A stretch of DNA of 64,000 bases from Cyanidioschyzon merolae. Its lineage: Eukaryota. A program made the translations under genes and the position numbers. Under the pieces are notes generated by a model, which searched no databases, was not told where the DNA came from, and saw only the letters and a list, made by a program, of their open reading frames with translations. The stretch lies in assembly GCA_000091205.1 (NCBI GenBank), contig AP006497.2; one strand, given 5' to 3'. The stretch's first letter is position 1. Every line of letters begins with the position of its first letter. Below are positions 14,158 to 61,834 of this stretch, in pieces.

Positions 14158-16176
14158 TGCATTGCAGGGATTGGATAGATGGACGGATGGATGAAGGGTT
14201 TCATAGGATCCATCGATGCCCGTGAACTAGTGTACGCTGGATCATTTGTGGATGCTCTTGATAGACCCCGGGTATTGATTCACTTGGTTAGAGGTCGATT
14301 GCCGAGTCATCGATGGAGATCGAGCACCACTCAGAACCTCTGTTGGTGTCGGTTCCGCGAGCTCACCCTGTATACCACGTTTCGCTAGCATATGCACTGA
14401 CAACACGGTGCTCTCGGAGTGCATATGAAACCGCTGACGCCTGGTTCCTGCTCTGAGCCGTCCATATCGTCGCTTCGCTATGGGACGAACGCGGAGTCGA
14501 TATCGACCCAGCGGGACGTTGCCTGGGGTGTCTGCGCCTCGGTCGCTGCTGCTCGCAGTGCAGTGCTCGTAGCGCTCGTACGGCAGTACGTCTGGGACGG
14601 GTTACGTTCGTGCGTGGCGCAGACGTGGTATCGGTGCTCGTGTGTGTGTATGACGGTGAAAAGAACGCGCTTGACGTCCAGATGGTGCTTTACAGTGCAT
14701 GACGCCAGGAGGTACGCTCGATGCTCCTGAGGTCGTCGCGCCAACCGACGCAGGATTACCGACTCGGTTCATGGAGTGTCCGGCTGGATGCGTACTCTGG
14801 AAGGAACAACACCCGAGTCAGAATGAAATGGAGCAGGTCCTCGAACGGGAGCGCAAACGCACATGTTTGAGCATCGTCTCGTTGTCCTGCATCGCGAACG
14901 TTTTCCGGCTTTTCCCGGTACGGATTCATGCGTCTCTTGTCCCTTACTTCGGGGCGTCAACTACGCGAGCCCTCTCATGCCGCCAGCGCCGTTACCTGCA
15001 GTCGAAAGACGATCGTGGAAGCGTGATCCTTCCGATATTGCCGATTTTTCGGCTGCTGTGGACGCGTTTCATGCACAGGCGGAGTACCCGACCTGCGCTT
15101 TGCTGGTCATTTTCATCCTGATGAGTACCGCCTCGGTGCACGCTCTACAGTCGTCATCGTCGACTGTGGTCAGGTATTCCCGTAGTAGATCGATCAAACT
15201 GCCTCCGGAGAGCGCTCGTTTGGTTATTCGGCAGAGAGGCCCCTGACGCGTACGGTAAGCTCGCCTCGATGTGCGCTTTCGTCTCCGTGCCCAGTGCCGT
15301 ACGCTAGGATCACGGGCTTGTTCTGGGCAATGCCCTCAGCGAGCAGACGACGCACTGTAATCACACATGTGATCCCTGGGCCATTCGATAGAGGATTCTG
15401 CAGAACGCAATATCTTCCGTGATGCATCGTAGAGCGCAAGGAAAATCCAGGTCGCGGATGCAGTTGAGAAATGTCGATAACGTTGACGCTGGTGCCATGC
15501 AAACCAGTGATGCATTCGGCACATCCAAGTGACCGCCATCATGACTCACATCCGAATCCGATATACGTTTTCATTGAAAAAGAACAGGCATGAGCCTCCT
15601 GTACCCGAATCGGATGCTCTTGTCGTCGAGTCCCGTTTCGTCGATGACAGCCCAGAGAGGATGATGTATCTTTCTAACGGAATCAGTAGTTGGACAAGTT
15701 GCGTGATCTTGCTCTGAACCGCACCTGAAAAGGAATTCGTCAAGCGACGTTGTCGAAGAGCGTGCCGCGAAACCCAACCATCGAAACCTCGAAACATGCG
15801 TTATTCCAGCGTGCTCCAAGAAAAAGCACGGTATAGATTCTGGAGTAGTAGATATGATTTGGATCATGATATTCGTGGGTTCACGAACGACATTTCGAAG
15901 GTGTTCGGTGCTGCGATGATTCCGGTGACGTGACGAGTTCCGGTGCCAATGAGTCCACGGAGATACATCTGAGGTTCGATCAAGAACCATGAAACGAAAT
16001 ATGCGTCTGGAACACCACATACCTATACTTTGATTGTCTAGGTTTTCATACAAAATTTTGCAAAGAGGAGCAAGATCGAACCATGCTGTTTCCTTTTTGT
16101 CATCTGCGACGGTGGTACTCCTGCTCTGCATTGTTGTGATCGTTGTTGTCGACATCGACGGCGACAAGTTGCTTGT

Positions 16177-31854: not shown

Positions 31855-32793
31855 GTAGGTGCATGCTCTGGGGAGTGATTTGGAGTAGGTATGTGCCTTG
31901 TCGTCAACCAGACAATCCGACACCAGTCGGTTTAGAGCTGACGCAGAATGTTTTTGCAAATGTCGCTCGTCGGAATACTAGGAAAGTTGCCGGCGTTTCA
32001 TTTTGCGTTTAGGGCGGGTATTCACGGGAGCGACAAGCCTAGATGCAACATTGCAGGGTAGCGTGTTCGTACCTAGAATGTCGAGGTCGTCTGCGCGCCA
32101 TTTCGGTCCGCAAGCTAGCCTTTGCATCGTTGCTGATTAAAGCGCAAGGCGCTTGTTTGTTGATAAAGGCTGATGCAACGTCAACATCGGCCGTTGGCGG
32201 TATTCCCGGCCCACCGCTTCTCGACAGCAGTGTTGGAAGAGCGGGATCGTTGTATTGCTAAACTCACTTAACTCCCCCATGGATCCGTGTCTACTAGGAA
32301 AGCCCTATGGGCATCAGATATGAGGTGTGCCAGCACGTGCATTGGAGATAGTGGAAACGCCAAACGCCGAATAAATCAGCTTCTCCAGGAGAGTTCCGCC
32401 CATGGGTGATGAAAGTGTCACCATCTCGTCTGGCGGTAAGTTCATGAAGAACCCCGTACTTGCATCGCAGTCGCTATGGCATCGTCTAGAACGCACAGCC
32501 AGCTCATCGAATACGCAACTCAATAGGGAAATGCAGTCGCGATATGAAAACAAAGGTTATGTGGCGGGGAAGTCACTTATCCTAGGTAGAGCCCGAGTGG
32601 CGCCCCAGTCTGGCTCTAGAACTCAAAGTGCAGCATTCTCATTTTTTCTCGCCGGCACGCCAGCTCTAACTTGTTCTCGAACCAGCGAAGATAGAAACGA
32701 TATGACAGCATAGATGCGTTTGCAGACAACAAAGTCTGACGGAGTGCTATTTTTTAAAGCTCGTACCATTTTCAGCATAAAATGGATCAGGTC

Positions 32794-34156
32794 ATCGAAA
32801 ACGGGCTCACACACGACACTTTGGGTCACTTGCCAGAGCAATCAGCACCGGCCTCTGCGACGTATTTCTCTGGTGGCTTGCTTTCCCTCCATCTGATCTC
32901 CAGCTTCAAATACACCGGTCGCTCGTCACGCTCCAGCTCCATGCACAGCAGTCGACGGTTGTCGATGGCAGCGTTCAAGACCCGATCTCGCTGGCTGCAG
33001 CTGTTGTTTACGCATTTCATGCCGAGGCAAAGGTCGCGATCTGCGCCTCGCTTGCCAGGCTCCTCCTCTATGTGTACGGCGTCCGCGCGCCCCGAACAGC
33101 CACGACACGTGGCAACGGCGAGTCGTTCCCGTAGGCACACACGACGACCCCGCCGCCGACTGCCGGCCTGCGGTGCACGACCGCCCGCTTCATCGCCCGG
33201 GACATGCCCTTGACGGGTCCGGAGAGCTCCGGTCGATGCCGGCCACGGTTTTGCCGCGCCCGATGCCCTACTCCTCGATCAAGCACGTCGTCGGGACGAC
33301 GCTTTTGCTGAATGCACTGCCCGCTGCACGCCCGAGCACACGCGCTTCCATTGGATGAGGGATCCGTGGAATGCGATGTGGTCCCATGAAGAAACAAGCA
33401 CCAGAGACAGAATCCTGGCTCGGGAACGGGTCGAGGGATTTCCACTCGCCGACGCTGCCGTTGTGCGAAACGGCTAGGCATGCTGGAATGGACACGATCG
33501 CTGCGATAGTTCAGGCCAGAGTGCAGCACCCGTTTCGGTGCGAGCGGCACCGCCGGGAGCCTGCTGGAGCGTATCCCGCGAGACGTATCCTGTTGCTGTC
33601 GAATGCAGCTTCATCGATAGTCGGGAAGACAGCAGGGTTTTTGTTTTGAGGGGAATCGATTCGCGAACGTTTGACGGGTCATTGGGTTTGGATGTGAGCT
33701 TTTGAATGGATCTTCAAGAAGCGACGACAAGTTTTGACCGCCGTCAACGCAGTGGCGCAGGTTGCTGTGCCCCGCCTACACGGCGTCCAGTAGGTCGATC
33801 GATGACTTGAGGAATGCGTCGTTTGCATATGCTAAACGCAGGGAGCGGAGAAACGCGAGTGCTTTTGCCCATGCATTCGATCATCATACAGGTATTTACG
33901 AATCCCAGTGTTATCGTGTGTCGCGAATTCGCTTGATCCTGGTGAAGAACCGATGTTGAGCGGCAAAGCGCCGAGGGCGTCATTCGAAGCCCTCGACCAA
34001 GCATCTTAGAACTACACATGACTCCGCAAATTCCCGGTGATGCATCTTGAATGTCGAATCTGTGCATCCTGATCAAGTTGGAATTGAATCGGAAGGCAGT
34101 AATAGGGGGCAAGCAGTTCAGTGTTCCAGTTTTATCTGACACTGCAGCCGAGCCGC
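32794..34156. repeat. Left arm of a 1.36-kb inverted repeat (element R1)
   Basis: It is the reverse complement of 36539..37896 at about 97-98% identity, checked on several stretches such as ccttccgattcaattccaacttgatcagg. The mirrored ORF pairs in the track (32782/37478, 33068/37141, 33371/37042, 33744/36459, 33762/36732) trace the same relationship. Confidence 0.9.
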
Positions 34157-34342
34157 GCGATGACGCACGATGCTCCAAATCGTCGCCCGCTCTACTCGTG
34201 CACTGGTGATACGACAAGAGGCGCTGAGTCGGAGACCGAGAAGCATAGCCATTGACTGCGCCTACGCAAAAACCTCTTGGGACTTTATCCTTTTCTCGAG
34301 CACCTTCCTGGAATAAAGCTGCTGTTGAACAGTTACGAAAGG

Positions 34343-36145
34343 ATGGTGGTTCTCGCGATCGCTATTTTGAACAAGCTCGGCCGGCTACTGATTTCTCGTC
34401 AGTTTCGTGAGATGCAGCGGACCCGCGTCGAAGGTCTACTCGCCGCTTTTCCGAAACTTTTGGAAAACGAGATGACACGGAGTGGGGAGAATCGCCAACA
34501 CACGTTCCTCGAGTCGGACACGGTTCGCTACGTATACCAGCCAGTGGAAAATCTCTATGTGGTGTTAATCACGAACAAGACGAGCAATATCGTCCAAGAT
34601 CTTGAGACGCTTCGTTTGGTCAGCAAGTTGCTCGCAGAGCTCAGCCCGATCGTGGGAGTGATCGATGAAACCGCCGTATACGAAGCAGCTTTCGACTTGA
34701 TCTTTGCCTTTGATGAGGTCATCGACTGGGGCGGCTACGCAGAGGCCGTGAACGTGCCTCAGATTCGTCAGTATCTCGAAATGTATAGCCACGAGGAGCG
34801 CTTAGCAAAAATGATCAAAGAGAGCAAAATGCATGAGGCGAAAGAGGAGATGCGTCGAAAGGCGAATCTCATTGAGAAACAGAAGCAAGACCTTGCGAAA
34901 CTGCCGCCCGAGATACGACGCCTCATGGGCCTTGAAGGGAGCTCAGTTTCGGCAGGCTCTGGCGCGCCTGCAGTGTCTACCGGTGCGTATTCAACGGGGA
35001 ATATGCGAGGATTCGGGCCCCAAGACTTTTCTGGTGCTCTCGGAGGCAGCACTCTGCTTGGCGATGTTGGACCTGCTCCGTCCTTGACGCTGGGCGCCAC
35101 CAGAATAGCAGCGGACCAGTCGGCAAGCATCACGGTTTCAGCCGGAGGCCGGGGTCTGTCTCTCGGGAAGCCAAAGGCTCGCACCGAGGACTGGATGGCG
35201 CACCTGCATGCTGAGAGTGAAACATCTTCCGCAGATGCGCAACGCTCGCGCGTTACTCCCGATCATACGGAGCCTACAGCGTCGCAACGAGCTGCGAAGA
35301 CAGTCCCGTCCGAATCCGCCACTCGAGCGGTTGCAACATCTTCAATCCCTGCGTCTGATTTCCATCTAACGACCGAGGAGAAGCTGAGTATATCACTCAC
35401 TCGTGACGGTCGACTCGAGAGCTTTCAAGTACACGGCGAGCTTCTCCTTCAGATACGCGATCAAAAGCGGGCACACGCTCGCATCCGGCTGAAACCGCTT
35501 CCGGAATCGATGATGCAAAAGGTGCAGCTGCGACTGCATCCGATGTTGGATCGTTCGCTTTGGCAACAGTCGTGGGTGCTCGCACAACGCAACGCGGAGC
35601 GCCCGTTTCCCTATGGTAGCCCGACGCCAATGAGCCTGATCAAGTGGCGTTTTCAGTCCACTGATGAGAGTCTGCTGCCTGTGCTTCTGACCTGTTGGCC
35701 AACAGTCTCCAGTGATGAGACGTCGATGACGATCGAGTATGAGATGATGTCTCGCGCATCGGTTTCCTCAGACTTGTGTCCTCCGTCATCGCTGTCTTCC
35801 GTGCAGGTGCACGTACCGTTGCCGCGAACAGCAGTACAGCCTGGATTCTTCCAGTTGACACGTGTGGACGGCCGTGCAACGCTGGATGAAGCCGCCGCTG
35901 CCGTGCTTTGGACGTTGCCTCCGCTGGAGGCGCCCTGTAGCGGTGCGCTAGAGTTTACGATTGCAGCTGTAGAAAATCCCGAGCGTATGTTTCCGATTCA
36001 AATACAGATATCGGCCACAGAGGTTTATACGAAGCTTGAAATTTTGCGGGTGGAGGTGGCGACATCCCCAGAGTCGGTGCCAACGGAGGAGACGGCGTTC
36101 ACGCAGGAGCATCGCCTGCTCACCGATCGATTCGAGATTGTATGA
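34343..36145 (+). CDS. ARCN1: Coatomer (COPI) subunit delta, with a longin-like N-terminus and a mu-homology C-terminus
   Basis: [39 protein letters not shown] matches human ARCN1 [39 protein letters not shown]. Further matches are ...[16 protein letters not shown]...LETLRL...[10 protein letters not shown]...AKEEMRRKA. The maximal ORF starts at 34277, and I chose the homolog-aligned Met. Confidence 0.92.
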   Translation: [600 protein letters not shown]

Positions 36146-36538
36146 GAAAGCACCTGCCTGGTGTAAGCGTTTTTTTTTGCATTCGCGTGGTCTCGTAGAA
36201 ATATGCCTCCGTGGACGCCAGTATGCGTCATGTTGGGCGCGTCGATATTTTGCGGCAAAGTGCGGCTCGATCGCCAGTCTGGGAAGCTGATGCACCAACG
36301 CACTAGTAGTGGATGCTGCGATTCAGAATAAGCGCCTTTTATATCGGTGGATCGATGCTTGGTAGCCGCATAGGGGTTCCGCTTCGTATACCAGGTGGGT
36401 CTGATTCACCTCCGGAAACCAGAGCAGGATCTACACGAAATCATGTAGGAGGATTACCGTGGACATTACGATCCAGAAGAATTCTGCACGTATTCCCCAT
36501 GATTCAGGGATGAGTGCGAATGTACCCGACCCGGATGC

Positions 36539-37896
36539 CTCGGCTGCAGTGTCAGATAAAACTGGAACACTGAACTGCTTGCCCCCTATTACTGCCTTCC
36601 GATTCAATTCCAACTTGATCAGGATGCACAGATTCGACATTCGAGATGCATCACCGGGAATTTCCGGAGTCATGTGTAGTTCTAAGATGCTTGGTCGAGG
36701 GCTTCGAATGACGCCCTCGGCGCTTTGCCGCTCAACATCGGTTCTTCACCAGGATCAAGCGAATTCGCGACACACGATAACACTGGGATTCGTAAATACC
36801 TGTATGATGATCGAATGCATGGGCAAAAGCACTCGCGTTTCTCCGCTCCCTGCGTTTAGCATATGCAAACGACGCATTCCTCAAGTCATCGATCGACCTA
36901 CTGGACGCCGTGTAGGCGGGGCACAGCAACCTGCGCCACTGCGTTGACGGCGGTCAAAACTTGTCGTCGCTTCTTGAAGATCCATTCAAAAGCTCACATC
37001 CAAACCCAATGACCCGTCAAACGTTCGCGAATCGATTCCCCTCAAAACAAAAACCCTGCTGTCTTCCCGACTATCGATGAAGCTGCATTCGACAGCAACA
37101 GGATACGTCTCGCGGGATACGCTCCAGCAGGCTCCCGGCGGTGCCGCTCGCACCGAAACGGGTGCTGCACTCTGGCCTGAACTATCGCAGCGATCGTGTC
37201 CATTCCAGCATGCCTAGCCGTTTCGCACAACGGCAGCGTCGGCGAGTGGAAATCCCTCGACCCGTTCCCGAGCCAGGATTCTGTCTCTGGTGCTTGTTTC
37301 TTCATGGGACCACATCGCATTCCACGGATCCCTCATCCAATGGAAGCGCGTGTGCTCGGGCGTGCAGCGGGCAGTGCATTCGGCAAAAGCGTCGTCCCGA
37401 CGACGTGCTTGATCGAGGAGTACGGCATCGGGCGCGGCAAAACCGTGGCCGGCATCGACCGGAGCTCTCCGGACCCGTCAAGGGCATGTCCCGGGCGATG
37501 AAGCGGACGGTCGTGCACCGCAGGCCGGCAGTCGGCGACGGGGTCGTCGTGTGTGCCAACGGGAACGACTCGCCGTTGCCACGTGTCGTGGCTGTTCGGG
37601 GCGCGCGGACGCCGTACACATAGAGGAGGAGCCTGGCAAGCGAGGCGCAGATCGCGACCTTTGCCTCGGCATGAAATGCGTAAACAACAGCTGCAGCCAG
37701 CGAGATCGGGTCTTGAACGCTGCCATCGACAACCGTCGACTGCTGTGCATGGAGCTGGAGCGTGACCAGCGACCGGCGTATTTGAAGCTGGAGATCAGAT
37801 GGAGGGAAAGCAAGCCACCAGAGAAATACGTCGCAGAGGCCGGTGCTGATTGCTCTGGCAAGTGACCCAAAGTGTCGTGTGTGGGCCCGTTTTCGA
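36539..37896. repeat. Right arm of the 1.36-kb inverted repeat (element R1)
   Basis: See the left arm. The two arms flank a unique 2.38-kb spacer that contains the complete coatomer delta CDS. Confidence 0.9.
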
Positions 37897-38237
37897 TCAG
37901 CCGGGATACCGTTCTTCGCTTTCCGACATTGATGTGAAAAGCGCGTACCGTTCCGTTCTTTCTTGCCCAGATATCGGTGACGATGCGTCCATAAGATGAC
38001 ACCCGTAGAGACCAGATACGATCACAATATCCGGTTGGCATGGGCCCCCACATCTCGCACAAACGCCCCCTGATGTTACTGGGTCGTTCTTTGAGCGCTG
38101 CAGCGCTGACGACCGGCTCCACCCGGAAACCGGCATTGCCTCTTTGCCGATGTTTATCGTTCGTGTGAGACGCTCTTCCAAAAAGCCGTAGGTGTTCTGG
38201 ACACGCGTCCCAGCCTAACACGCGATTTTGATAGAGA

Positions 38238-41024
38238 ATGGAGCGGTTGCTGACCGCCATTTCAAGATTGAAGCTGGGCACGCATCCCCAGGTCAGTTCG
38301 GTGGCTGACCACCAGCTGAAGTCTTCGGCAGCGGCGCTTTCGCGGACGCTATGCAGTACCAGTGACGGTACGCGCCTTTTCTTGCTTGGGGCAGACGGCG
38401 GGCTCTGGCTGACGAATGCCGAGGAACTGTGGCGTTCTGCACAGCGGCTCGGCGAAGAGTCGCGAACGGAGTTCTTCGTGAGCAGCTCTGGAACGCTGGG
38501 GACTCCCGTACACTTGACTCCAGCGTTACGCTTCAAGCCGATCGCTTGCGCGCTTTCGAGCTCGGATCGATTTCTTGCTCTTTATGACGAGGAGTTTTGC
38601 GCGGTTGTGGACCTCCAAACAGTGCCGAGTTCGCAGACTTGGCTGGATCAAATAGCCCCCGCACCTGTGACTGCACCCGCTGTGCTACTAGGTAGTCGAA
38701 CTAGTCAGAGGGCTGCTTTCACGCTACGAAGCATTCGCCAGGTAAGTTGGCATCCCTGGAGTGATGGACGCCTCGCTATCCTCTACGATGATGGCATGCT
38801 GGAGCTTTACGATACCTTGGAAGCTACGCTACCGGAGCAGACCTTGCGCATTCGCTTGCCGCTGTCGGGGAGTGAAGCACCTGCCGCAACAGGCGTCGAA
38901 GACACCACTGTTGCATCAGTCAGTATCCAGAACGTCTCTGGTGCGCTGGAGCAAACCGCAGGACAGCGCACATTGGTCAAAACTGAAGCTCCAGCGGCAT
39001 TCGCTTTCGGCCCATTAACGGAACCATCGGAATATCCTTGGGAGCTTGTCACGCTGTATTTGTTGCGAGAGTCTGATGGAGCGCTGTTTATTCTCTGTCC
39101 GTTTGCTCCTACTGGACTGCGCTTGCCCGCAGTGTGGGTAGAAGCTGTTCATGGTCAGCTGGAGACTGGAGCGCTCGCGGATACAGCAACTTCTTCGGCA
39201 GCAGACGCGACCACATGGGCCGAACTACAGATGCGTTTACGACGAGAATGGCTGGCACTCTGCACCAGTCGGCAAGCTCGTATGGATCTCGAGAGCCACC
39301 GCGCAGACTCCGAAAAAGCGCCTCCCGTATATCGTTTGCTTCGACCTCCACGCACCTTTAACATGCAATGGACGCCGCTTCTGCAGGGCCCGGTCCATAT
39401 CGAGCATGATGCTGCAACAGCAGCGAGTCATTGGGCACCCGCGTGCGGCATCCAGGTTCTTCCGAGCCCGCTAGGTCCGCTCCTGCTCCGTACCTGGTGG
39501 CACGGTGTTCTAGACGTGCTTGTCACTATGGAAAAGGTGGAACCTGTCTGGGCCCCGTCGTCAGAGTGTTCAGAACAGCTGCCCGCAGAGGAGGATGTTG
39601 CGCCATCGCTGCTTCTCTATGAGCGCATCTTCACGGGCGCTCCCTGTGCTCATTCGATCGTTGGCGAGAGCCCCACAGGGCTCTCCACGTCCTGTGCAGC
39701 AAACGATGAGCATTTACCACTTCCATGGGTGTCACCTGCGCAGACAGTGCCCCGTCTGCAACGCAGTGTGCTGCTCATACGCAGCCACCAGGGCGTCTCG
39801 GCCCTCTATTTGACGTGGCTGGATATGATCAGCCACGTGCTTTCCCCGAGAAGTTGGCCGTCTAGCTCGCTTTTCCATTCCGAACCGGATTCCAATGACG
39901 AGTTTATGGAAAGTGAGCAGCTTGAACAGCTGTTGGAGCAGTTGCCATGCTCCACGCTTGTGCAGTCGCTGGCGTCAGAGGCGGCTCCGCTGGGCCTCGC
40001 AGAGCTGCGCCTCCCCAGTACAGTGACACTTGTGAATGGCCCAGCCGCGAACCTGCTGCTTGCAATGGATGCTGATGGAGAGCACTTGCGAGCAGCGGCA
40101 TTGCACTGGTGGCGCTTACCGAGCGTGGGCGCGAGCCTCCGTTTCCCGCGCTCTTCCATGACTACGCGGGAACTCGAATACACGGATCTGGTGCACGCAT
40201 GTTCGCCGGCGGTGAAAGCAGGAGCAGCAGCAGCATCAACAACAACAACAACAACAGTAGCGACGAAAATACGTTCAGCATCGGGGCTAACGCCTTTGGA
40301 GCAAAAGCTCACGCAGGTATTCGGTTCCCTGGTGCCATGGCACACGTCCGGAGTCAGTCATGCTGCAGCGACAGGCGACGCGCAAGAACTTTGGGAACAG
40401 ACGCGAACGCTCGTTCTCCTTTGGCAGATGATACAGACGATTATCCAGCCGCTGCGACTTTTCTATGCACAAACGCTATCATCGACTATAGAACAGCTTC
40501 CTCTGAGACTGGAAACGAACGCACGTCAGTACAGCTACCTCCAACACCGCCTAGAAATGCTGCAAAGTCGAGCAAGAGACTTGGATCATCGCATTCGTAT
40601 CCTGGCGACAGGAATGAATGAAAATCTCCAAAAGCGCGCTGCAGGTCTATCGGAGCTGCTGCTGCATCGGAAACCTATGATCACTCCGCTGGAGCGCCAG
40701 TGTTTTCGCCAGCTCGAGCGCTATCGCGAACGCCTCTGCGAGTTCCAGCAGCGCCTTACGCAGTTACAACGGCAGGCTGCAGCGGCGCGGCAATCAGGAA
40801 GCAGGGCGCTGCCCGAGCTTGATATCAGGGAAGACTGGTCGCTGTTACGAAAAACCCAACAGCGTGAGATTCGTCAAGCTATCGAAGAGAACACCCGTCG
40901 TTTGGAACGGCTTTGCCAGGTTTCGCAGGAAACACGAGCGTCGATCGAGCGACTTGTGCATATGCACGACATGCGGTTCTCGTCGTTAACGGGAACGTGC
41001 AAAGACGACACTCGGATTCTCTAG
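38238..41024 (+). CDS. Nup88/Nup82-like nucleoporin, with an N-terminal beta-propeller-like region and a C-terminal coiled coil
   Basis: A 928-aa ORF. SIRQVSWHPWSDGRLAILYDDGMLELYD resembles the Nup88 block [28 protein letters not shown]. The C-terminal coiled coil ...PMITPLERQCFRQLERYRERL resembles the Nup88 C-terminus [24 protein letters not shown]. It contains a poly-T/A insertion. The assignment is from recall and is tentative. Confidence 0.5.
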   Translation: MERLLTAISRLKLGTHPQVSSVADHQLKSSAAALSRTLCSTSDGTRLFLLGADGGLWLTNAEELWRSAQRLGEESRTEFFVSSSGTLGTPVHLTPALRFKPIACALSSSDRFLALYDEEFCAVVDLQTVPSSQTWLDQIAPAPVTAPAVLLGSRTSQRAAFTLRSIRQVSWHPWSDGRLAILYDDGMLELYDTLEATLPEQTLRIRLPLSGSEAPAATGVEDTTVASVSIQNVSGALEQTAGQRTLVKTEAPAAFAFGPLTEPSEYPWELVTLYLLRESDGALFILCPFAPTGLRLPAVWVEAVHGQLETGALADTATSSAADATTWAELQMRLRREWLALCTSRQARMDLESHRADSEKAPPVYRLLRPPRTFNMQWTPLLQGPVHIEHDAATAASHWAPACGIQVLPSPLGPLLLRTWWHGVLDVLVTMEKVEPVWAPSSECSEQLPAEEDVAPSLLLYERIFTGAPCAHSIVGESPTGLSTSCAANDEHLPLPWVSPAQTVPRLQRSVLLIRSHQGVSALYLTWLDMISHVLSPRSWPSSSLFHSEPDSNDEFMESEQLEQLLEQLPCSTLVQSLASEAAPLGLAELRLPSTVTLVNGPAANLLLAMDADGEHLRAAALHWWRLPSVGASLRFPRSSMTTRELEYTDLVHACSPAVKAGAAAASTTTTTTVATKIRSASGLTPLEQKLTQVFGSLVPWHTSGVSHAAATGDAQELWEQTRTLVLLWQMIQTIIQPLRLFYAQTLSSTIEQLPLRLETNARQYSYLQHRLEMLQSRARDLDHRIRILATGMNENLQKRAAGLSELLLHRKPMITPLERQCFRQLERYRERLCEFQQRLTQLQRQAAAARQSGSRALPELDIREDWSLLRKTQQREIRQAIEENTRRLERLCQVSQETRASIERLVHMHDMRFSSLTGTCKDDTRIL

Positions 41025-43619: not shown

Positions 43620-44779
43620 GGCGGCTGGTGCTGCTGTCGCTGATACGACTGCAGGAGGCCGTTAGCGAGCAGGCGAGCGCCGGTCTCAGCAGGTCGCTGT
43701 GTTGACGGCAACGCGTTTCTTGCCCCGTTCAAATATGAAAGCCGCTATCCAGCACCTTTCAGGTGCACAAACTCTTCATCAAACTCGCATAAAGTTCAGT
43801 ATACTGGAACTGGAAACTCCGTTGCGGCACGTTGCGTCTGGTACGAACGGCCCAAGGCGTGCAACGCTGCTTCGATTCCGTTGCCATGGGGTGGCGATCG
43901 CTCGCCACGTCGCGCTCTTGTAGGCTCGTATCCAATGAACGTGTCACTCTGAACTGATCGCACTGATCTTGCTTTTCGATTTTGTTTCCGAACCTTTTCC
44001 TAGACGTAAAGCATCGCTATTCGGAGTACGTCAATACGGGCTTATGGATTCATGTGTAGTTATAGGGAGTCATGGTCGTCATTTACGAATGGCTTCTTTG
44101 GATCTCTGCTGCTGGAAATGATGAACACAACAGAATCAAGATGATCCGCAACGTACCCCTACAAGAGTTCGTGAAATACCTGAGATCACTATCAGATTTT
44201 AATGTACAAGCGTCCAGTCTGCTCCTTTCCGTACGGGTATGGCATGTTCAAATCATGCATTTTCCAAGTTCCTCTTTCGTTCTGTTTCAAGGCATCTCTT
44301 GGACGCTGCAATTCGGGTCGCCTTATTGACGAGAAAACATCCACGATATCGTATCTTGACAGCATTCGCACCTGCTTACGCCGAAATGTGAGTCAACTTC
44401 TGACGCTAAATAATCGATCCGGCTCGAAGGATAAATCTGGGTACCTTCGTGGTCATCGATGAAATGGCCTCCAACAGCACTTGGGTATCTCTCAAGGCAG
44501 ATGCTGCCCGGTGCTTCCATCTCTTCTGTTTGCCTGGAAATGCGCGTCGGGCCCGGACATGAGTCATCGGAGCGAGCGCGTCGAGTGCAGCGTACGTCAC
44601 TGCCTTGCACAAAGGGAACCTAGAAGCATCGACATTGCTCGACGTGCTCCCCGGCCTGGATATTCCTTCCCGTGCTGTGTTTCATCACGGGCAACGCCAT
44701 GCCCTGCACATCCTCTACCGAACCGTGTTGCGTGCGCTCGCAAGTGCAGCCGACCGAGTACTTGCCGAACGTAGCGATT

Positions 44780-45320
44780 AGAGGAGGCCGCAGAACGCGG
44801 GGTGCGGCACCAGACGCCGATGCAGAAAGCGCGCCCAACCTATCGTCAGGCACCCGTCGAGGGAATGTAACGTGCGGTAAAGTAAGCGTTTGTGGGCCAC
44901 ATGGCGGAACTCGGAGGAGGACCTTTTATGGACAGATGGGAACACCTGATCACAGTCAACTGCCACCACTGCCAAGGGTTCACCGAGCATGCATACAAAG
45001 GAGATGAAAAAAAACAAGCGAAATATAGATCGCAACTTCCGCCTCTGCATGAAATGCGTTGAAAACAGATCGAAGCTACGAAAACGGAGCTTGAACGCTG
45101 ACATCAGCATCCTGCAACTGCTTATCACGAAGCGGGACGGAGACGAGCGACCAGCATATTTAAAGCCGGTGATCCGAGAGAATAAAACGAAGCAGTCATG
45201 GCAAAAGTTCGCACGAAGCTGATGATGACGACACACAGAGGAGACCCGGAACTTTAGTATGCATACACGAGTTACTGAACCCGTTCCATTTCTTATTCTG
45301 ACATGGATGCAGGCTAGCAA
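44780..45320. repeat. Diverged partial third copy of IR element R1, corresponding to the outer part of the arms
   Basis: Translations from both strands (44778..45320 minus, ...ITGFKYAGRSS...MSAFKLRFRS...THFMQRRKLRS; 44989..45222 plus, LCMKCVENRS...LNADI...DERPAYLKPVIRENK) parallel the arm ORFs (ISSFKYTGRSS...MAAFKTRSRW...THFMPRQRSRS and LGMKCVNNSC...LNAAI...DERPVYLKLEIRWRESK) at about 50% aa identity in both frames. That pattern means DNA-level homology and not coding conservation. Confidence 0.5.
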
Positions 45321-46270
45321 TATGGGAGCTACGATTCGGATTGTCCAAAGCTGGTCTGCGACGACGAGCCTGAAACAAGATATTCGGACGACAACGCCAT
45401 AGGATCAAGATGTGTCAGGCGAGGATGTGGCGACGCGTCATCGATAAAATACGCTTCGTCTATTCGCGCTAGACCCACGGTTCTTTAAAAGGAGTAGCGC
45501 ATATAGCTGCTTGAAAATCTTACCTAGCCTGAACTCATTCATTTGCTTTACAATATGTAACCGCTGGACCTGATATCCCTGATTCCCTAGCTATCGTGCT
45601 TCGAATGTTGCGAGCAGCTCAGCCGGCCGCTGCTCTCGTAAAAAACAGAGCAGAGCAACTGGACAAGAGCATCCTCCACCGACTGTTTACTGGTCGCTAG
45701 CTAGTGCACAGGTTGGTTTCGGCGAGTTGACGCTAGCAAGCCCGGAACGCTGCCGGCGTTGACAACTACCACGCTTGGCACTTTGACCTTAAAGAGAAGC
45801 TCCAGCCTCGCGCCCCCAGCTCCAAACCCGTTCGCTGCGCTACGCTCTGTAACCGACAAACTGGACTGCTTTAGCTGACTCGGCCGTATTCACCGTGATT
45901 TCAGGATCAGCTCTGTGTTCATCTGCTCTCTCTGCCGGCAGAAAGCCTGACTGGTATCCTCGCGCTAGACATGGGTTCAGGGCGCAGCGCACGACCATGA
46001 CCTTAGAAGCGCTTCAACGATCAGCGCAGCTATCGCGGAACACCATTTTCTGACCAGGTTTTCTGGCGTGTGTTTTCGAGCCAGCTAGACATAAGGCCAA
46101 GTCTCGACAGCCACGCACCGACTCTAACGAAAGAAGTACCACCAAGGCAAGTTCATCGCGAAAGGTTCGCTAAAGACCTGCAAGGAAAACTCACACACGT
46201 AGGCGTGTCGCTGTTGCGGTACGCTGTGAGCTAGCAGCTCGCGCAGCGAGCTACGCATATCTTCAGGCTC

Positions 46271-49411: not shown

Positions 49412-49736
49412 TTTTTCTCGATTTCACGAGATGTTGACATAGGCCAGCGTTCCTCGACGGTGCGCCTGATATCAGCGCGCGGTAAAGCATCCATTGATCC
49501 AACTACTTCCAGGTTCAATATTCTATACTTCATCTCGGATATACTAGTCGTCTCATACGTACTATCGTGTGCCGCGTGCCTGGCGTAATCGTCCGCGATA
49601 TAGCGCCCGTACCGTCGGTGCGGATGCAGCACGGAGACAGAACGACTCTGGCGCGCCCCAGAGTGCGTCAGCTCGAGCGCGTAAACTGATACCCACTCAC
49701 TGGCGCTTCTCCGGTTTTGTTGACCCGCAGACTGCA

Positions 49737-49852
49737 GTCGGTTTCAGTTTGTCCTGGCAAACTTCGAGACTGGAAGGCTGCCCCACGAAGATGGCTAGCA
49801 TCAGCTCCGCAGGTCTTTTCTTCAGCACTGCACATCGCCTGATATTGATGGC
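49737..49852 (+). repeat. Short dispersed element R2, copy 1, about 300 bp upstream of the exosome-subunit start codon
   Basis: A 116-bp gap-free alignment to 61719..61834 at about 75% identity overall and about 85% over the last 52 bp. The shared core is tcagctc[ct]gcaggt...cctgatattgatgg. Confidence 0.5.
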
Positions 49853-52093
49853 GGTATTAAAGCCCCGGCTAGAGAATTCCATGTGTTGATTGTCGCTGGT
49901 GGAACTCATGAATGCGAGAATTGCGAGAACTCGTGCCCGCTGTGCCGTTTTCTGCTCTGTAAGCGCCACCTGCTTTTCTATCGTTGAGGCACTCCGCTGG
50001 CTTTTCTCCATCTCGAATTTCTGAAGTGTGCGCCCCAGCTCATCCCTCGGATTTTAGGTTTCTTTGAAAGCAATGAAATTGTTTATGGCCTTAGGTGAGG
50101 ACCGTCCCCGAGGGAGAGCGACTGGAAGAAGAAAGACGACACGTGTCCAGGTGTCACCGTGTGCTGAACACTTCAGCGAATCACTCTGTGTAGCGATCAT
50201 TATATTTCACGATAGAAATCACTCCGCTTTATTGGGTTGAATCACGCAGAGCATGTGAGAATGAAAAGCAGATCTACCCCGGAAAGAATCAGCAAAAGCC
50301 CAAACGCACGGGGGATGGTGAAACGCCACGTTGTCCAGTAGAAGGACGTCGTTAGACATCGAGGAATAGTCTTCAATGATTGGACAAAGTGCGTGCCGTC
50401 GTTTGAGCCTTCTCCACGAGCGAAACCGAGGCCACGAAATGAATCCATTGCCGCTCGAACAGAGGATGTCGTCGTTCTATTCGAGTTCGATCGTACATAC
50501 AACATGCTTCCTCGCCGCGAATCCCCATGTACGCTCCGACACTTTCGTCCGAAGCAAGTCCCATTGACTGAAACAAAATACCAACATCGCTGTGCGTCAT
50601 AACGATCGCGACATTCCAGGAACGCTGTCGTTGCGACCTCGGTGAAAGATGGCTGTGAATGAACGAGGACTCTTTTTTTGCGACTGTTTCCGAGTGATTT
50701 CAGGACCATACGAATAAGGTGCACCGGAACGGAAATGGCCTTGGATGCGACGATTGTCGCATTTGCTCTCCGTTACCTGTTCAAAGGATCGTTTCCCGCC
50801 ATTGACATCAAGCGCGCTTTGAGAGTGTCGGTTTGTTTTTCGCGGAACGCATATCTTTCTTTCTTTCAGTGTTCCTAAACCACATGAGTACGGTCGTATG
50901 AATAACCGAAGAGGAATGCAGTCCTCCTTACATTCTTCAGTAAAGAATATATCCTAAAGGCAAATCGTGAGCAATCTATACGGCACATTGCATCGTGAGT
51001 AAACCGAATTCAGTTGTAAGGCTATACCGCATTTGGATTATACACCTCGTTCGATTCACGGATCATCATGTACCACTGCAACGGGCGGCGGTTTTCTCAC
51101 CGCCACGAGAAAATGGTATCCGTGCCAAAAGACAGTCCAAAAGGATGCTTCCTTCAGATACTCGGCGCGCCTTTGTTCTACAGAGTTGTCCATGTCGCGT
51201 ACTATTCCGCCTCTGTGCCGAGTCCCGCGGCCATTTTCTTGAAGAGGGATTCTGGAATAGCGCCTGGCTCTCGCACCGATGCATCGCAGCGCTGGAACAA
51301 TGCCATCGGTGACGCTGTTGGACGCAGAGGTGCCCCGAGTATGCACACTGCTGCTCATATTTCTTGAGTCTGTCAGCTGTTTTAGGTGCTTCACATGTAA
51401 TCTAAATGCACATCGATTGATGCGCACGCAGATGCCAGAGACACGGAAATTCGATGTTTATTCCGCGTGCGATTATGGAGCCTGTCCAGAGATCTACTGG
51501 ATGCACGGGCGTTACTGGTCGGAAAATTGATGGACCCTGCTTGCGTCTGGGACACGGCCCGCAACACACTTTTCTCTGGTGTGGAACGCCCACATTTGCA
51601 TGTGAGTTGTCCTTTCAGGTCCAGCGTGCGTAGCGCTCGACGCCTGGTTCATTTCATGTACAGGGGCGTCTCTGGTGGCCGCTACAGACTCCAGTGACTG
51701 CGTTAGGATGCCTCCCGGCCGCGATACGCAACCTGTTTACATCGGCGCCAGCGTCTCCAGATGAACGACATGCCGGATGCTCGGCAATCGATTCGAGTAG
51801 CGAGGTGCTTGCACGCTCTGCACGGCAACGCTCGACACTGAAGCAAGCGGTTTGCGTAGAAGTTTCCGTGCGCGCACCAGTCTCAGATAAGTGTATCCGT
51901 GGCGGCTGCTACAGTTGCTGAAGCATCGCGCACAGGAATGATGTCTCTTTGTCATGTACGACTGGAAGCGATGACTCTCAAATAACGCTCCTCTGGGACG
52001 CGGCGAACCGACAGAAACCAAGACACTTGTGTATCGCTACCAAATCGGCATCTGTTCCCACCTGGTGCGATTGTATTCTCAGGGCATCAATGA

Positions 52094-57796: not shown

Positions 57797-58056
57797 TAGC
57801 TTTCGTCACGATCGCACCCAAAGGTAGATGTTGGCCAGCTGCGTCCAATCCTTTACAAAACCTTCACGTTTTAGACTATCCGCGTACACCGCACCGCCCT
57901 AGAGGCTGCTCGTACGCACCGCAACTCTTCCGTCGAAGCGAAAAGCACTACCACTACTACCACCACCACCAAAGAATCTCGCAGTCAAGGTGCTCGATGC
58001 AGGTACAAGTGCCCGGCGGCGCCGGCGTGCTACCCGAAAGCCTGGATCACAGCGCG

Positions 58057-58089
58057 CCTGCCTGCCTGCCTGGCTGCCTGCCTGCCTGG

Positions 58090-58124
<35 letters not shown>

Positions 58125-58192
58125 GCTGCCTGCCTGTCTGCCTGGCTGCCTGCCTGCCTGCCTGCCTGCCTGTCTGCCTGCCGGCGCGCCGC
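58057..58192. repeat. (CTGC)n tetranucleotide microsatellite with CTGG/CTGT variants, about 34 units
   Basis: cctgcctgcctggctgcctgcctgcctgg... read directly over about 136 bp. Confidence 0.95.
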
Positions 58193-58244
58193 GCACCCCC
58201 GTCGCGCACAATCGCAGCAGCGATACGCTGCCGCCCCTGAATTG

Positions 58245-59894: not shown

Positions 59895-61718
59895 CTACAC
59901 GAGCATACGCGCTTTTGACCTGCATGGATCCATGCAGTACTGGATCGTCAATGATGACACGCCCTATGTTGTCCAGATAAATGCTCGAGGCCCATAAAGG
60001 CAGGCGCCTAGCCCAAGCAGGTACCGCCTGGACATGCATGCCTCGCGAATGCTTCGTGTTTGATGAGTACACAAGTGGCGTTTCGTATGCGGCAGGCAGG
60101 TCGATGCGCTCGCTAGCCGCGGACGTTGTGCCTTATCTTCCATGTGGACGGGCGTAGAGAAAACCACACCACGTATCTCGATCGAATAGCTCGAGCTGCC
60201 TGATTCTGCGTTCAGCATGTTTCCCAGATACCATGCGCGTGAAACCGGGCTCATTGCTGAGTCCCATATGTGCTGTGCACCCGATCATGGGAGAATCCGC
60301 GCTGCGCAAAAAACTAGCCACAGTGCTTGTACGACCGCGGTGATCGAGCTTGCGCGTCATTCTCTTTCGGGGCTGGGTGATTTTGATCCATATCACCAGC
60401 GACTCGGGCACCGTTATGTGCGTAGGCGAGCACGTGACGGAAGCGATCCAGCATCGCAGCACTCGTGACTCTGTCGCTCACGTTTCCTCCGTCGATCACG
60501 TGGCTGGGTCGATTCGCGTGTGTAGCGCTTGTCCGGCGACGATGACCGGAATCGAATGGCCAGTACGATTGCTCTGGTTCCTACTCGCCGCTTTGCACCA
60601 CACCGATATAAAGAGGGCTCATAGTGTCCGTTCTGCACATGCAGTCGCCATACTCTGGCTGTCTGATTGGTTGGTTGGCTTTACGGCTGATGCGCACGGT
60701 TCAGGCAGTTGCGGTATGCGTCCCATACGCGGACTCGACCTGCGCTTGCCCTGCCCCACCGTCAAACAAATCCACGAGCATCGCATGCCTAGCGCTGCCT
60801 GCGTAACCGGGGCTACGCTCGCGGCAACGCCCGTCGGTATTTCGCATCAGGAGGCCTCCGGTGTGAAGGGCACGCGATTTCACCCCTGAATCCGATCCGG
60901 ATCCAATGTGGTACATTCGCGAGCGATACCATCCAAACAGCAAGGGAGATTGACTACATGGGATCATGCGTGCGTGGAATCCTCGGGATGCAGCAGCTGG
61001 CGTCGCGGCAACGTCCCGTTCAGCTCCAATGCAGTGCAGACGTAGCGCTGAAAGAGGCATGCCTTCGGCGAAGTCTGCTTCACCAATGCTGCGATCGCAT
61101 GTGATGAACGGGATCACTCTAGCACACGCGATGATGACTTCCTCGTACTACGCGCAACAGCAGTGACACAGGCCTGCGTTGATGACTCCAAAACACCGCT
61201 GAGAGCGCTGGAAGAACGCATGATCATGAGACGGCCATACAGATGACCCTTGTTTGACGGCAACAGGCTTCCTTTCAAAGCCATCCGTGCAATGAAACAA
61301 AATAGGATCTCTGACATGGTTTGACCCCAAACGAAGTCACCCAGAACCTCCAGTGAGGCATCGGTGTCGCGGTGCACAGCACACGCGTTGCATGTCGCAC
61401 TTTTCGGATAACGGGGTTTATCAATATTTGCGCATGATTCGCTGCACTGTATCCAGTGCTTCACATATGGATCATGCGCGCGTTCAGCGGAGAACCCGCC
61501 ATGATGGAAAAATTCCGTGAGTGCCGCACCTGGAATCCGTTTCGATATCCTCTGAAAACTTAGCCTCGTGCTCTGCACATAAAACTTAGGATGCATGGTC
61601 ATAAGCACGCATGCTAGGCTAGTCAGTAAAACAAAAAAAAAGTTTAACGTCCATGGACTAGAAGTATATCTACCCAATGCAGACGCCTCCCAGCCTTTTC
61701 TGACTTCCAGAATGCTAT

Positions 61719-61834
61719 CGATTTCAGTTTCTGCTTGTACACTTCGAGCATCAGACGCTACCTCACAAGCTTCGATCGCGTCAGCTCTGCAGGTTTCCTC
61801 TTCAATACTCCACATTTCCTGATATTGATGGTAG
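61719..61834 (+). repeat. Short dispersed element R2, copy 2, about 650 bp upstream of the MFSD5 start codon
   Basis: See copy 1 at 49737..49852. Confidence 0.5.

What the first reader, a model, noticed from the sequence alone, without database searches (positions are those of the whole stretch)
44780..45320. Third, about 50%-diverged fragment of the R1 inverted-repeat element, 7 kb downstream
Both reading strands at 44.78-45.32 kb give translations that parallel the outer about 450 bp of the IR arms in two different frames at once (FKY[AT]GRSS..., ...THFM[PQ]R[QR]..., ...KCV[EN]N..., ...DERP[AV]YLK...). That pattern fits DNA homology of a non-coding repeat and argues against a conserved protein. 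R1 is therefore a dispersed repeat family with old and young copies, which supports a mobile-element origin for the arms around ARCN1.
Basis: partly seen in the sequence, partly recalled or inferred. Interest (0 to 1): 0.5.

Follow-up and report, generated by a model that had tools for sequence, protein, structure and literature searches.

The report
Decayed mariner-Fanzor transposon copy, red alga
The flagged stretch is one full-length, long-dead copy of a small "cut-and-paste" DNA transposon, a deletion derivative of an element that once carried a transposase gene and a Fanzor RNA-guided nuclease gene; two other old copies form the inverted repeat around the delta-COP gene, so this is ordinary genomic fossil DNA with an instructive history.

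Summary
The homology is real but under-measured. 43924-45310, not 44780-45320, is a complete 1.39 kb unit, 56-59% identical to the IR arms (E about 1e-65). A fourth copy lies at 16114-14809. A motif scan of metagenomes and protein look-ups raised the family to at least 9 full-length lineages in this cyanidiophycean red alga. All are colinear and star-like (51-61% pairwise, 65-76% to consensus), and none has an intact ORF. The consensus has 26-29 nt terminal inverted repeats with TA outside both ends. It restores an IS630/Tc1-mariner transposase (Pfam DDE_3, 40.7 bits) joined to the C-terminal third of a Fanzor1/TnpB nuclease (PF07282, 28.6 bits). A young 3476 bp relative in AT-richer contigs carries both genes intact. 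Its transposase matches the consensus from Met1 to the second catalytic Asp (E 5e-51), and its Fanzor1 matches only from about aa 523-540 to the end (E 5e-29). The family is therefore an internally deleted, non-autonomous mariner-Fanzor1 element that amplified once and now decays neutrally. The IR arms are best read as two old inverted copies kept 99% alike by gene conversion, though a recent duplication is not excluded. New member of a known kind; modest interest.

The parts
43924..45310 (+). Copy c3 (the finding): full-length decayed non-autonomous mariner-Fanzor1 element, about 1.39 kb, 74.7% identical to the family consensus
   Evidence: blastn and nhmmer homology to the arms; feature map; orthologues at 99% or more in metagenome loci L021, L023 and L028
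43924..43949 (+). c3 5' terminal inverted repeat (badly decayed in this copy); TA precedes it (TGTA|GGCTCG...)
   Evidence: consensus TIR test 25/29, 0 of 1000 shuffles reach it; positions
44004..44780 (+). c3 remnant of the Tc1/IS630-type transposase: HTH region 44004-44449, DDE_3 core 44449-44780, ending just after the second catalytic Asp
   Evidence: consensus Pfam DDE_3 E 2.8e-10, 40.7 bits against cut-off 28.6; intact 317-aa transposase aa 1-253 aligns to consensus nt 80-862, E 5e-51; mapping to window
44716..45255 (+). c3 remnant of the Fanzor1 C-terminal third: CxxC 44961-44972 and 45046-45057, RuvC-III motif NRDLNAAINIL 45082-45114, ERPAYLKP 45145-45168.
   Evidence: direct tblastn of intact Fanzor1 (765 aa) on c3: aa 541-621, E 7e-7; consensus PF07282 28.6 bits against cut-off 26.3; Fanzor1 aa 523-756 aligns to consensus nt 748-1312, E 5e-29
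45283..45310 (+). c3 3' terminal inverted repeat (TTCCATTTCTTATTCTGACATGGATG), followed by CA at the TA position
32763..34146 (-). Arm L copy: complete element with both TIRs (5' TIR 34146-34121, 3' TIR 32788-32763, followed by TA); 71% identical to consensus
   Evidence: (3' tail aligns to the consensus, P 0.0005); tblastn transposase aa 142-184 and Fanzor aa 677-728
36545..37936 (+). Arm R copy: identical-tract part 36545-37897, plus its own diverged 3' terminus, about 37907-37936 (core TTCCGACATTGATGTG at 37921-37936)
   Evidence: 12/16 match to the terminal TIR core plus TA, reached by only 2 of 1922 control 60-nt windows
14809..16114 (-). Copy c4: fourth full-length copy, the most decayed (65% to consensus), just downstream of the XMAP215/TOG-like gene
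   Evidence: direct tblastn Fanzor1 aa 550-589, E 4e-8 to 8e-7
32794..34152 (.). Left arm of the 1359-nt, 99.3% inverted repeat (homogenised tract)
   Evidence: 10 differences between the arms; edges relative to the element ends
36539..37897 (.). Right arm of the inverted repeat (homogenised tract)
34343..36145 (+). Single-exon delta-COP (ARCN1) gene enclosed by the two inverted copies
   Evidence: 64% identical to Cyanidiococcus yangmingshanensis coatomer delta; PF00928

Best explanation
The flagged stretch is the 3' third of a complete, dead copy (43924-45310) of a non-autonomous DNA transposon of about 1.38 kb from the Tc1/mariner/IS630 superfamily. The ancestral master copy arose by an internal deletion of about 2.1 kb in a two-gene element with the layout TIR, Tc1/IS630-type DDE transposase, Fanzor1 RNA-guided nuclease, TIR. 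The deletion joined the first roughly 230 codons of the transposase (HTH domains plus the DDE core through the second Asp) to the last roughly 230 codons of Fanzor1 (RuvC-II region, zinc ribbon, RuvC-III). At consensus level the joint is out of frame. The deletion removed the third catalytic residue of the transposase and the RuvC-I Asp of Fanzor1. The derivative kept both TIRs, so an autonomous partner could mobilise it in trans. It inserted at TA sites in one old burst, leaving at least 9 full-length lineages, and has since decayed neutrally. Two copies landed in inverted orientation on either side of delta-COP. Gene conversion has kept their interiors 99% identical, and only their outermost 3' ends escaped. 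Shown directly: the homology, family size, TIRs, the two protein remnants, the intact two-gene relative, and the lack of present constraint. Inferred: trans-mobilisation, a single burst, and gene conversion.
For: The motif scan found 4 matches in the window (0 expected) and 23 metagenome loci, all carrying units. Two further lineages came from protein look-ups. Pairwise identity is 51-61% and identity to the consensus is 65-76%. For p = 0.73, independent decay from one ancestor predicts 0.56 pairwise, which matches. Unit edges are sharp in all lineages. The consensus TIR matches 25/29, with 0 of 1000 shuffles reaching that score, and TA lies outside both ends. No lineage has an intact ORF, yet the consensus gives Pfam DDE_3 at 36.9 then 40.7 bits (cut-off 28.6) and PF07282 at 28.0 then 28.6 bits (cut-off 26.3). 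The intact relative is a 3476-bp element, 100% identical in 6 contexts, with ends TA|CAATCTTG...ACATAGGTG|TA, encoding a 317-aa DDE_3 protein followed by a 765-aa Fanzor1. Its transposase aa 1-253 aligns to consensus nt 80-862 (38% identity, E 5e-51). Its Fanzor1 aa 523-756 aligns to nt 748-1312 (E 5e-29). The window copies themselves give direct hits. P0122 is colinear with the C. merolae Fanzor1 protein CMe-1 (E 1e-13). Between strains the units diverge 0.9-2.1%, other intergenic DNA 0.6-1.7% and codon positions 0.1-0.8%, so there is no sign of constraint. The IR tract is confined to the element and arm R has its own 3' terminus. Published precedent: Fanzor1 genes captured by mariner elements with 24-33 bp TIRs and TA duplications, often as chimeric elements (PMC3627910; PMC10530073).
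Against: The intact two-gene element is only 38% (transposase) and 30-56% (Fanzor1) identical to the consensus. It sits in AT-richer (43-45% GC) contigs of another, possibly viral, genome, so it is a relative and not the parent. No autonomous copy was found in this alga. TA flanks survive in only 4 of 10 copies on the left; on the right T is kept in 5 of 7 and A in 3 of 7. The TA duplication therefore rests on the consensus and on the young relative. The exact breakpoint and the frame relation at the joint are uncertain within about 100 nt (consensus nt 748-862), because the two protein alignments overlap there and the consensus itself has alignment-dependent frameshifts. The indel load is low (10 small gaps for 587 substitutions between arm L and c3), which I attribute to this genome's mutation spectrum without proof.
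Confidence: 0.85

Rival explanations
1. A purely non-coding dispersed repeat (MITE, foldback or other TIR element without coding ancestry).
For: No frame or strand preference and no 3-periodicity between copies. No ORF in any lineage. No Pfam hit on single-copy translations.
Against: The consensus restores two protein domains above Pfam's curated cut-offs. It aligns with intact proteins at E 5e-51 and 5e-29, starting from the transposase's first Met. At 1.38 kb it is too long for a MITE, and it has no long internal inverted repeat.
Confidence: 0.03
2. A family of functional non-coding RNA genes or regulatory modules kept colinear by selection.
For: All lineages are full length and colinear with few indels. 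Copies sit in intergenic regions next to gene starts (arm L before delta-COP, c3 before the JmjC gene).
Against: Units diverge between strains at least as fast as other intergenic DNA. Conservation along the unit is nearly uniform, as expected for neutral decay. There is no Rfam match. The consensus 3' end shows no excess folding energy (z 0.07 and -0.22). No copies occur at syntenic sites in related species.
Confidence: 0.04
3. The ancestor was a native single gene encoding a transposase-Fanzor fusion protein (or a domesticated host gene family), and the copies are its pseudogenes, so no deletion was involved.
For: In the 9-lineage consensus the transposase part and the distal zinc-ribbon part fall in the same frame. 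Both parts are RNase-H-like folds.
Against: The proximal Fanzor part is in another frame. The fusion would lack the third DDE residue and the RuvC-I Asp. The intact relative has two separate complete genes in the same order. The TIR and TA ends mark a transposon, not a host gene.
Confidence: 0.05
4. On the arms only: arm R is a recent segmental inverted duplication of arm L, not a second old insertion homogenised by gene conversion.
For: The arms are 99.3% identical while all other pairs are 51-61%. The tract runs 5 nt beyond the 5' end of the element. Relatives lack both copies.
Against: Both tract edges fall within 5 and 30 nt of the element's ends, as expected if homology was limited to the element. 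Arm R has a separately diverged 3' terminus at the right place (12/16; 2 of 1922 controls). The window's arms differ from each other at 10 sites but from the same arms in another strain at 27-29 sites, and the diagnostic sites are mosaic. This is concerted evolution.
Confidence: 0.2

Closest known systems
Fanzor1-carrying Tc1/mariner transposons (PUl-1, PUl-2, PUl-4 of Pythium ultimum; PGv-1 of Phaeocystis globosa virus; Bao & Jurka 2013, PMC3627910)
   Same: The ancestral plan is the same: TA target duplication, 24-33 bp TIRs (26-29 here), a mariner-type transposase at the 5' side and Fanzor1 at the 3' side on the same strand. These elements also tend to form chimeric and deleted derivatives, and they occur in algae and their large viruses.
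   Different: Those elements are 3.3-4.4 kb with intact genes and few copies. This family is a 1.38 kb deletion derivative with neither gene complete, at least 9 old lineages, in a cyanidiophycean red alga. Sequence similarity to PUl-1 transposase is marginal (E 0.02).
The 3476-bp two-gene element found here in metagenome contigs L047-L052 (317-aa DDE_3 transposase plus 765-aa Fanzor1, P0126)
   Same: It is the closest intact relative of both halves (E 5e-51 and 5e-29). It has the same gene order, the same TA flanks and a near-identical right terminus (ACATAGGTG|TA against ACATGGGTG|TA). The left TIR matches at 13 of 26 positions in register.
   Different: It is young (copies 100% identical) and complete, and it lies in 43-45% GC contigs of a different, possibly viral, genome. 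It is 38% (transposase) and 30-56% (Fanzor1) identical at protein level, so it is a cousin and not the parent.
CMe-1A, the old Fanzor1 family of Cyanidioschyzon merolae (about 3.2 kb, about 150 copies, about 80% identical to consensus; PMC3627910)
   Same: It is an old, decayed Fanzor1-derived repeat family in a cyanidiophycean nuclear genome. The Fanzor part here aligns with CMe-1 aa 544-681 (E 2e-4).
   Different: CMe-1A has no TIRs, is unclassified, and still has some intact Fanzor1 ORFs. This family has TIRs, TA flanks and a mariner transposase remnant, keeps only the Fanzor1 C-terminus, and is much closer to the metagenomic (virus-like) Fanzor1 proteins than to CMe-1.
Internally deleted non-autonomous DNA transposons (for example Ds from Ac, or deleted mariner/Tc1 copies)
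   Same: The mechanism is the same: an internal deletion keeps the TIRs, and the derivative is amplified by a transposase supplied in trans.
   Different: Here the deletion spans two genes and fuses fragments of a transposase and an RNA-guided nuclease.
Inverted repeats kept identical by gene conversion (plastid IRs; inverted transposon pairs that mediate inversions)
   Same: Two inverted copies 2.4 kb apart are 99% identical, while other family members are 51-61% identical. Both orientations of the enclosed segment appear in assemblies.
   Different: This pair is nuclear, encloses a single essential gene, and its flip-flop is not proven because short-read assemblers cannot phase a 1.36 kb repeat.

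Membership tests
Tc1/mariner/IS630 (ITm) superfamily DNA transposon | Transposase with a DDE/D RNase-H-like core of the Tc1/IS630 type (Pfam DDE_3) | tested here: met
   Consensus translation scores DDE_3 at 40.7 bits against cut-off 28.6, E 2.8e-10. It aligns with an intact 317-aa DDE_3 protein from Met1 to aa 253, E 5e-51.
Tc1/mariner/IS630 (ITm) superfamily DNA transposon | Terminal inverted repeats of roughly 20-40 bp | tested here: met
   Consensus ends match 25/29 in inverted orientation, and 0 of 1000 shuffles reach the score.
Tc1/mariner/IS630 (ITm) superfamily DNA transposon | TA target-site duplication | tested here: inconclusive
   TA lies outside both TIRs in the consensus and in 6 of 6 copies of the young relative. 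In the decayed copies TA survives in 4 of 10 on the left; on the right T is kept in 5 of 7 and A in 3 of 7.
Tc1/mariner/IS630 (ITm) superfamily DNA transposon | N-terminal paired-like HTH DNA-binding domains | tested here: inconclusive
   The Pfam hits are sub-threshold: HTH_Tnp_Tc3_2 E 1e-3, HTH_32 E 0.012, HTH_33 E 0.05. The region does align residue for residue with the N-terminus of the intact transposase.
Tc1/mariner/IS630 (ITm) superfamily DNA transposon | Complete catalytic triad (autonomous element) | tested here: not met
   The DDE_3 match stops at profile position 117 of 146. Solid homology ends at MDNIAFHKS, before the DPIE Glu of the intact protein. The family is therefore non-autonomous.
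Fanzor1 / TnpB RNA-guided nuclease | C-terminal signature [TS][TS]-x-x-C4 zinc finger-x(5,50)-RD (Bao & Jurka 2013) / Pfam PF07282 | tested here: met
   The consensus reads HLTTAKCHRC...LCMKC...NRDLNAAINIL. PF07282 scores 28.6 bits against cut-off 26.3. It aligns with Fanzor1 proteins P0126, P0122, P0121 and CMe-1.
Fanzor1 / TnpB RNA-guided nuclease | RuvC-I Asp (GxDxG) and the N-terminal WED/REC part, that is, a complete nuclease | tested here: not met
   Only Fanzor1 aa about 523-756 of 765 have a counterpart in the unit. The GLDPGR motif of P0122 and P0126 has none. The unit holds a fragment, not a Fanzor gene.
Fanzor1 / TnpB RNA-guided nuclease | omega-RNA encoded at the 3' end of the gene and the transposon end | tested here: inconclusive
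   The consensus 3' 146 and 123 nt fold no better than shuffles (z 0.07 and -0.22). No Rfam hit. No transcript data are available.
MITE | Short (under about 800 bp), no coding remnants, high copy number | tested here: not met
   The unit is 1.38 kb and about 90% of it derives from two genes.
Foldback element | Long internal inverted repeats making up most of the element | tested here: not met
   Only 26-29 nt TIRs are present. No internal inverted repeat was reported within a unit.

The most novel reading that the evidence does not exclude
The one deletion form that amplified kept exactly the two things needed to exploit both machines of its parent. It kept the TIRs, for the transposase, and it kept the 3' end of the Fanzor1 gene plus the right end, which is where TnpB/Fanzor systems encode their guide (omega) RNA. 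On this reading it would be a non-autonomous element that hijacked RNA-guided homing in trans as well as transposition. The slightly higher conservation of its 3' third would then be a trace of that past function.
Probability: 0.1. Interest if true: 0.6.

Novelty: new member of a known kind. Interest (0 to 1): 0.4.

Why it matters
Cyanidiophycean genomes are among the most compact and transposon-poor of free-living eukaryotes (0.7% in C. merolae, PMC1955436). Their long gene-less intergenic stretches are largely unexplained. This case shows that four such stretches in one 64 kb window are fossils of a single mariner-Fanzor1 derivative. It adds a classifiable (TIR/TA) Fanzor1-linked family to red algae, where the only described family, CMe-1A, is unclassified. 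It links that family to apparently active two-gene relatives on virus-like contigs, which fits the proposed viral spread of Fanzors. It also gives a clean example of concerted evolution between inverted transposon copies around an essential gene, with possible flip-flop inversion. In practical terms, it shows that a consensus of very diverged copies can recover coding ancestry that pairwise comparison cannot see.

Tried and rejected
Coding signal between pairs of copies: no 3-periodicity and no preferred frame or strand. This pointed to non-coding DNA until the consensus was built.

Pfam on single-copy six-frame translations of arm R: nothing.

Rfam (gathering threshold) and tRNA scans of the window: nothing.

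RIP-like hypermutation as the cause of divergence without indels: rejected, because ts/tv is 0.8-1.0 with no directional bias beyond a modest GC difference.

Orthologous copies at syntenic sites in Cyanidiococcus (L010) and another relative (L011-L014): none by blastn or by nhmmer with 3- and 7-lineage profiles.

Further, weaker copies in the window: none.

PDB sequence search with the stitched consensus: no meaningful hit.

Exact look-up of the 600-aa delta-COP: not on record; the 622-aa TTG-start version is.

Transposase next to the solitary Fanzor1 genes P0121 and P0122 (L038-L043): none.

omega-RNA-like structure at the consensus 3' end: no excess stability.

Similarity of the transposase part to PUl-1: marginal (E 0.02).

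Structure prediction and the representative-library search were not used. The sequence evidence was already decisive, and a consensus sequence is not an admissible input for those tools.

Full report
**1. The observation**

The window contains a 1359-nt inverted repeat (32794-34152 and 36539-37897, 99% identical) around a single-exon delta-COP gene. The flagged interval 44780-45320 does resemble the arms. blastn aligns 43928-45301 with both arms at 59% identity over 1333-1406 columns (E about 1e-63 to 1e-65), and nhmmer gives E 2e-84. Global identity is 55.6%, against 41% for shuffled sequence. That third coincides with a spurious 180-aa antisense ORF. A fourth copy lies at about 16114-14809 on the minus strand. 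A sensitive self-comparison finds no other dispersed family in the window except one 250-nt pair.

**2. Organism and neighbourhood**

The delta-COP protein is 64% identical to that of Cyanidiococcus yangmingshanensis and 48% to that of Cyanidium caldarium. An identical protein occurs in JGI metagenomes. The window is therefore nuclear DNA of a cyanidiophycean red alga. Gene order (TOG protein, proteasome alpha, Noc2, pentapeptide protein, delta-COP, a roughly 900-aa protein, JmjC, Prp19) matches the relatives. In those relatives the spacers beside delta-COP are 0.6-0.8 kb, too small to hold the element. Neither blastn nor nhmmer profiles detect any copy in their loci.

**3. A family, not a pair**

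Pairwise comparison shows no 3-periodicity of mismatches and no preferred frame or strand. Rfam and tRNA scans are empty, and Pfam finds nothing on single-copy translations. A 28-nt motif shared by arm, c3 and c4 occurs 4 times in the window (0 expected) and in 23 metagenome loci, and every one of those loci holds a unit. Clustering gives orthologues of the window's copies at 99% or more, plus four new lineages. Protein look-ups added two more lineages, and L015 holds a partial one.

At least 9 full-length lineages are all colinear at about 1.27-1.40 kb. They are 51-61% identical pairwise and 65-76% identical to their consensus. Independent decay from one ancestor predicts this relation: for p = 0.73 the expected pairwise identity is 0.56. 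Conservation rises and falls sharply at the same two points in every lineage and is nearly uniform in between. No lineage has an intact ORF in any frame.

**4. What it was**

The consensus ends are inverted copies of each other: CTACGCCCGTGTCAGATTAAAATGGAACA against the reverse complement of the right end, CTACACCCATGTCAGAATGAAATGGAACA. They match at 25 of 29 positions, and 0 of 1000 shuffles reach that score. TA lies immediately outside both ends.

Translating the consensus restores long open stretches on one strand. Pfam scores DDE_3 at 40.7 bits (cut-off 28.6), with sub-threshold Tc3/IS630-type HTH hits upstream of it. Pfam also scores PF07282, the zinc-ribbon/RuvC-III module of TnpB, Cas12f and Fanzor, at 28.6 bits (cut-off 26.3).

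A database search with the stitched consensus found two translations of further decayed copies and two intact Fanzor1-type proteins. The intact proteins match only consensus nt about 790-1286. One of them, P0122, is colinear with the published C. merolae Fanzor1 protein CMe-1 (E 1e-13).

**5. The intact relative and the deletion**

A 65%-identical relative of P0122, the 765-aa protein P0126, is in six different contexts preceded on the same strand by a 317-aa DDE_3 gene. The six copies are 100% identical over 3476 bp, with sharp ends TA|CAATCTTGTTATG...AACATAGGTG|TA. That is a young mariner-type element carrying a transposase and Fanzor1.

Its transposase aligns with the consensus from Met1 (MYPVPFRSAVLRAY against MYSLDIRSAAIRAY) through the second catalytic Asp (LMDNIAFHKS against IMDNIAFHKS), at 38% identity and E 5e-51. 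Its Fanzor1 aligns only from about aa 523-540 (RALARAAD, PVIIGYGTGRGNGGGH) to the C-terminus, at E 5e-29. The 1.38 kb family is therefore an internal-deletion derivative, missing about 2.1 kb, of such a two-gene element. It lacks the third DDE residue and the RuvC-I Asp, so it is non-autonomous.

The window's own copies give direct, colinear hits: c3 to Fanzor1 aa 541-621 (E 7e-7), c4 to aa 550-589 (E 4e-8), and the arms to transposase aa 142-184 and Fanzor1 aa 677-728 (E about 0.002-0.008). The other two are their antisense translations.

**6. Is it doing anything now?**

Between the window and metagenome strains, the units differ at 0.9-2.1% of sites. Other intergenic DNA differs at 0.6-1.7%, and codon positions at 0.1-0.8%. 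That gives no sign of constraint. The consensus 3' end, where a Fanzor guide RNA would be encoded, folds no better than shuffled sequence. I conclude that the copies are neutral fossils.

**7. The arms**

The 99% tract starts 5 nt outside the element's 5' TIR and stops 30 nt short of its 3' end. Arm L's untouched tail aligns with the consensus 3' TIR (P 0.0005). Arm R has a different, separately diverged tail at the expected place: TTCCGACATTGATGTG at 37921-37936 matches the terminal core plus TA at 12 of 16 positions, and only 2 of 1922 control windows do as well. The two arms differ from each other at 10 sites, but from the same arms in another strain at 27-29 sites, with mosaic diagnostic sites. 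The best reading is two old inverted insertions whose interiors have been homogenised by gene conversion. A recent segmental duplication is less likely (about 0.2).

Metagenome contigs show both orientations of the delta-COP segment relative to the flanks. L034 is like the window, while L025, L001 and L002 are flipped. Short-read assemblers cannot phase a 1.36 kb repeat, so real flip-flop is unproven.

**8. Comparison with what is known**

Bao & Jurka (2013, PMC3627910) described Fanzor1 genes captured by mariner elements: PUl-1 (3620 bp, 24-bp TIRs, TA), PUl-4 (3356 bp, 26-bp TIRs, TA) and PGv-1 (4442 bp, 29-bp TIRs, TA, in an algal virus). They noted frequent chimeric derivatives and proposed spread by viruses. 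They also described CMe-1A in C. merolae, an old, unclassified Fanzor1 family without TIRs. Later surveys list Fanzors in rhodophytes and autonomous Mariner/Tc1 associations (PMC10530073).

The present family is a new member of this known kind. It is a deleted, amplified and decayed mariner-Fanzor1 element in a different cyanidiophycean alga. Its Fanzor part is closer to metagenomic proteins than to CMe-1. Those proteins lie on contigs with virus-like gene content: Rpb2, RNA ligase, Peptidase_S74 and UvrD helicase.

**9. Verdict**

Novelty: new member of a known kind. Interest is about 0.4.

Noticed in passing
window 32505-38240; loci L034, L025, L001, L002: The delta-COP segment between the arms appears in both orientations relative to the flanks. 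L034 joins the left flank, the arm and the delta-COP 5' end, as in the window. L025, L001 and L002 join the left flank, the arm and the delta-COP 3' end. This is either real flip-flop inversion or short-read assembly ambiguity, since gaps between arm SNPs reach 718 nt.
   Followed up: partly
window 32794-34152 / 36539-37897 against L001-L003: Concerted evolution. The window's two arms differ at 10 sites, but each differs at 27-29 sites from the arm in the metagenome strain, and the 10 diagnostic sites are mosaic there.
   Followed up: partly
L047 431-3906 (also L048-L052; the index lists the Fanzor protein in 81 blocks): A 3476-bp mariner-type element encodes a 317-aa DDE_3 transposase and a 765-aa Fanzor1. 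It is 100% identical in at least 6 different insertion contexts and has TA flanks, so it looks currently active. L047 holds a second, diverged copy in the opposite orientation (803-aa and 320-aa genes). The host contigs are 43-45% GC and unidentified.
   Followed up: partly
L038, L039-L043, L053: Solitary Fanzor1-type genes (P0122, P0121, P0125) with no adjacent transposase lie on contigs with virus-like gene content: Rpb2, RNA ligase, 2H-SAK, Peptidase_S74 (including a 2625-aa protein), UvrD helicase and ATG8. P0122 (551 aa) looks N-terminally shorter than its 700-860-aa relatives.
   Followed up: no
L015 1-1323 and 11936-12181: Two family copies lie 10.5 kb apart on one contig. The second (L015b) is 71% identical to the L033 lineage, closer than any other inter-lineage pair, which hints at some substructure in the otherwise star-like family.
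   Followed up: no
window 5785-6728: A tandem array of about 8-10 copies of a 92-nt unit (83-98% identical in the core) overlaps the start of the 2177-aa ORF at 6479-13012.
   Followed up: no
window 58004-58210: A (GCCT)n / (GCCTGGCT) microsatellite of about 200 nt lies within overlapping long ORFs.
   Followed up: no
window 49690-49938 and 61671-61916: A second, short dispersed repeat: a direct pair of about 250 nt at 67% identity (E 1e-26). It is unrelated to the transposon family.
   Followed up: no
window 34277-36145: Metagenome gene calls give delta-COP a TTG start (622 aa, P0001). The conserved N-terminus (MVVLAIAILNK) suggests the ATG at 34343 (600 aa) is the real start.
   Followed up: no
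window 44001-46000: This is among the lowest-GC 2-kb bins in the window (51.6% against 54-61% for most bins). It coincides with copy c3, whose GC is 50.6%, against 57.6% for the arms. The homogenised arms are GC-richer than the solitary copies, as GC-biased gene conversion would predict.
   Followed up: no
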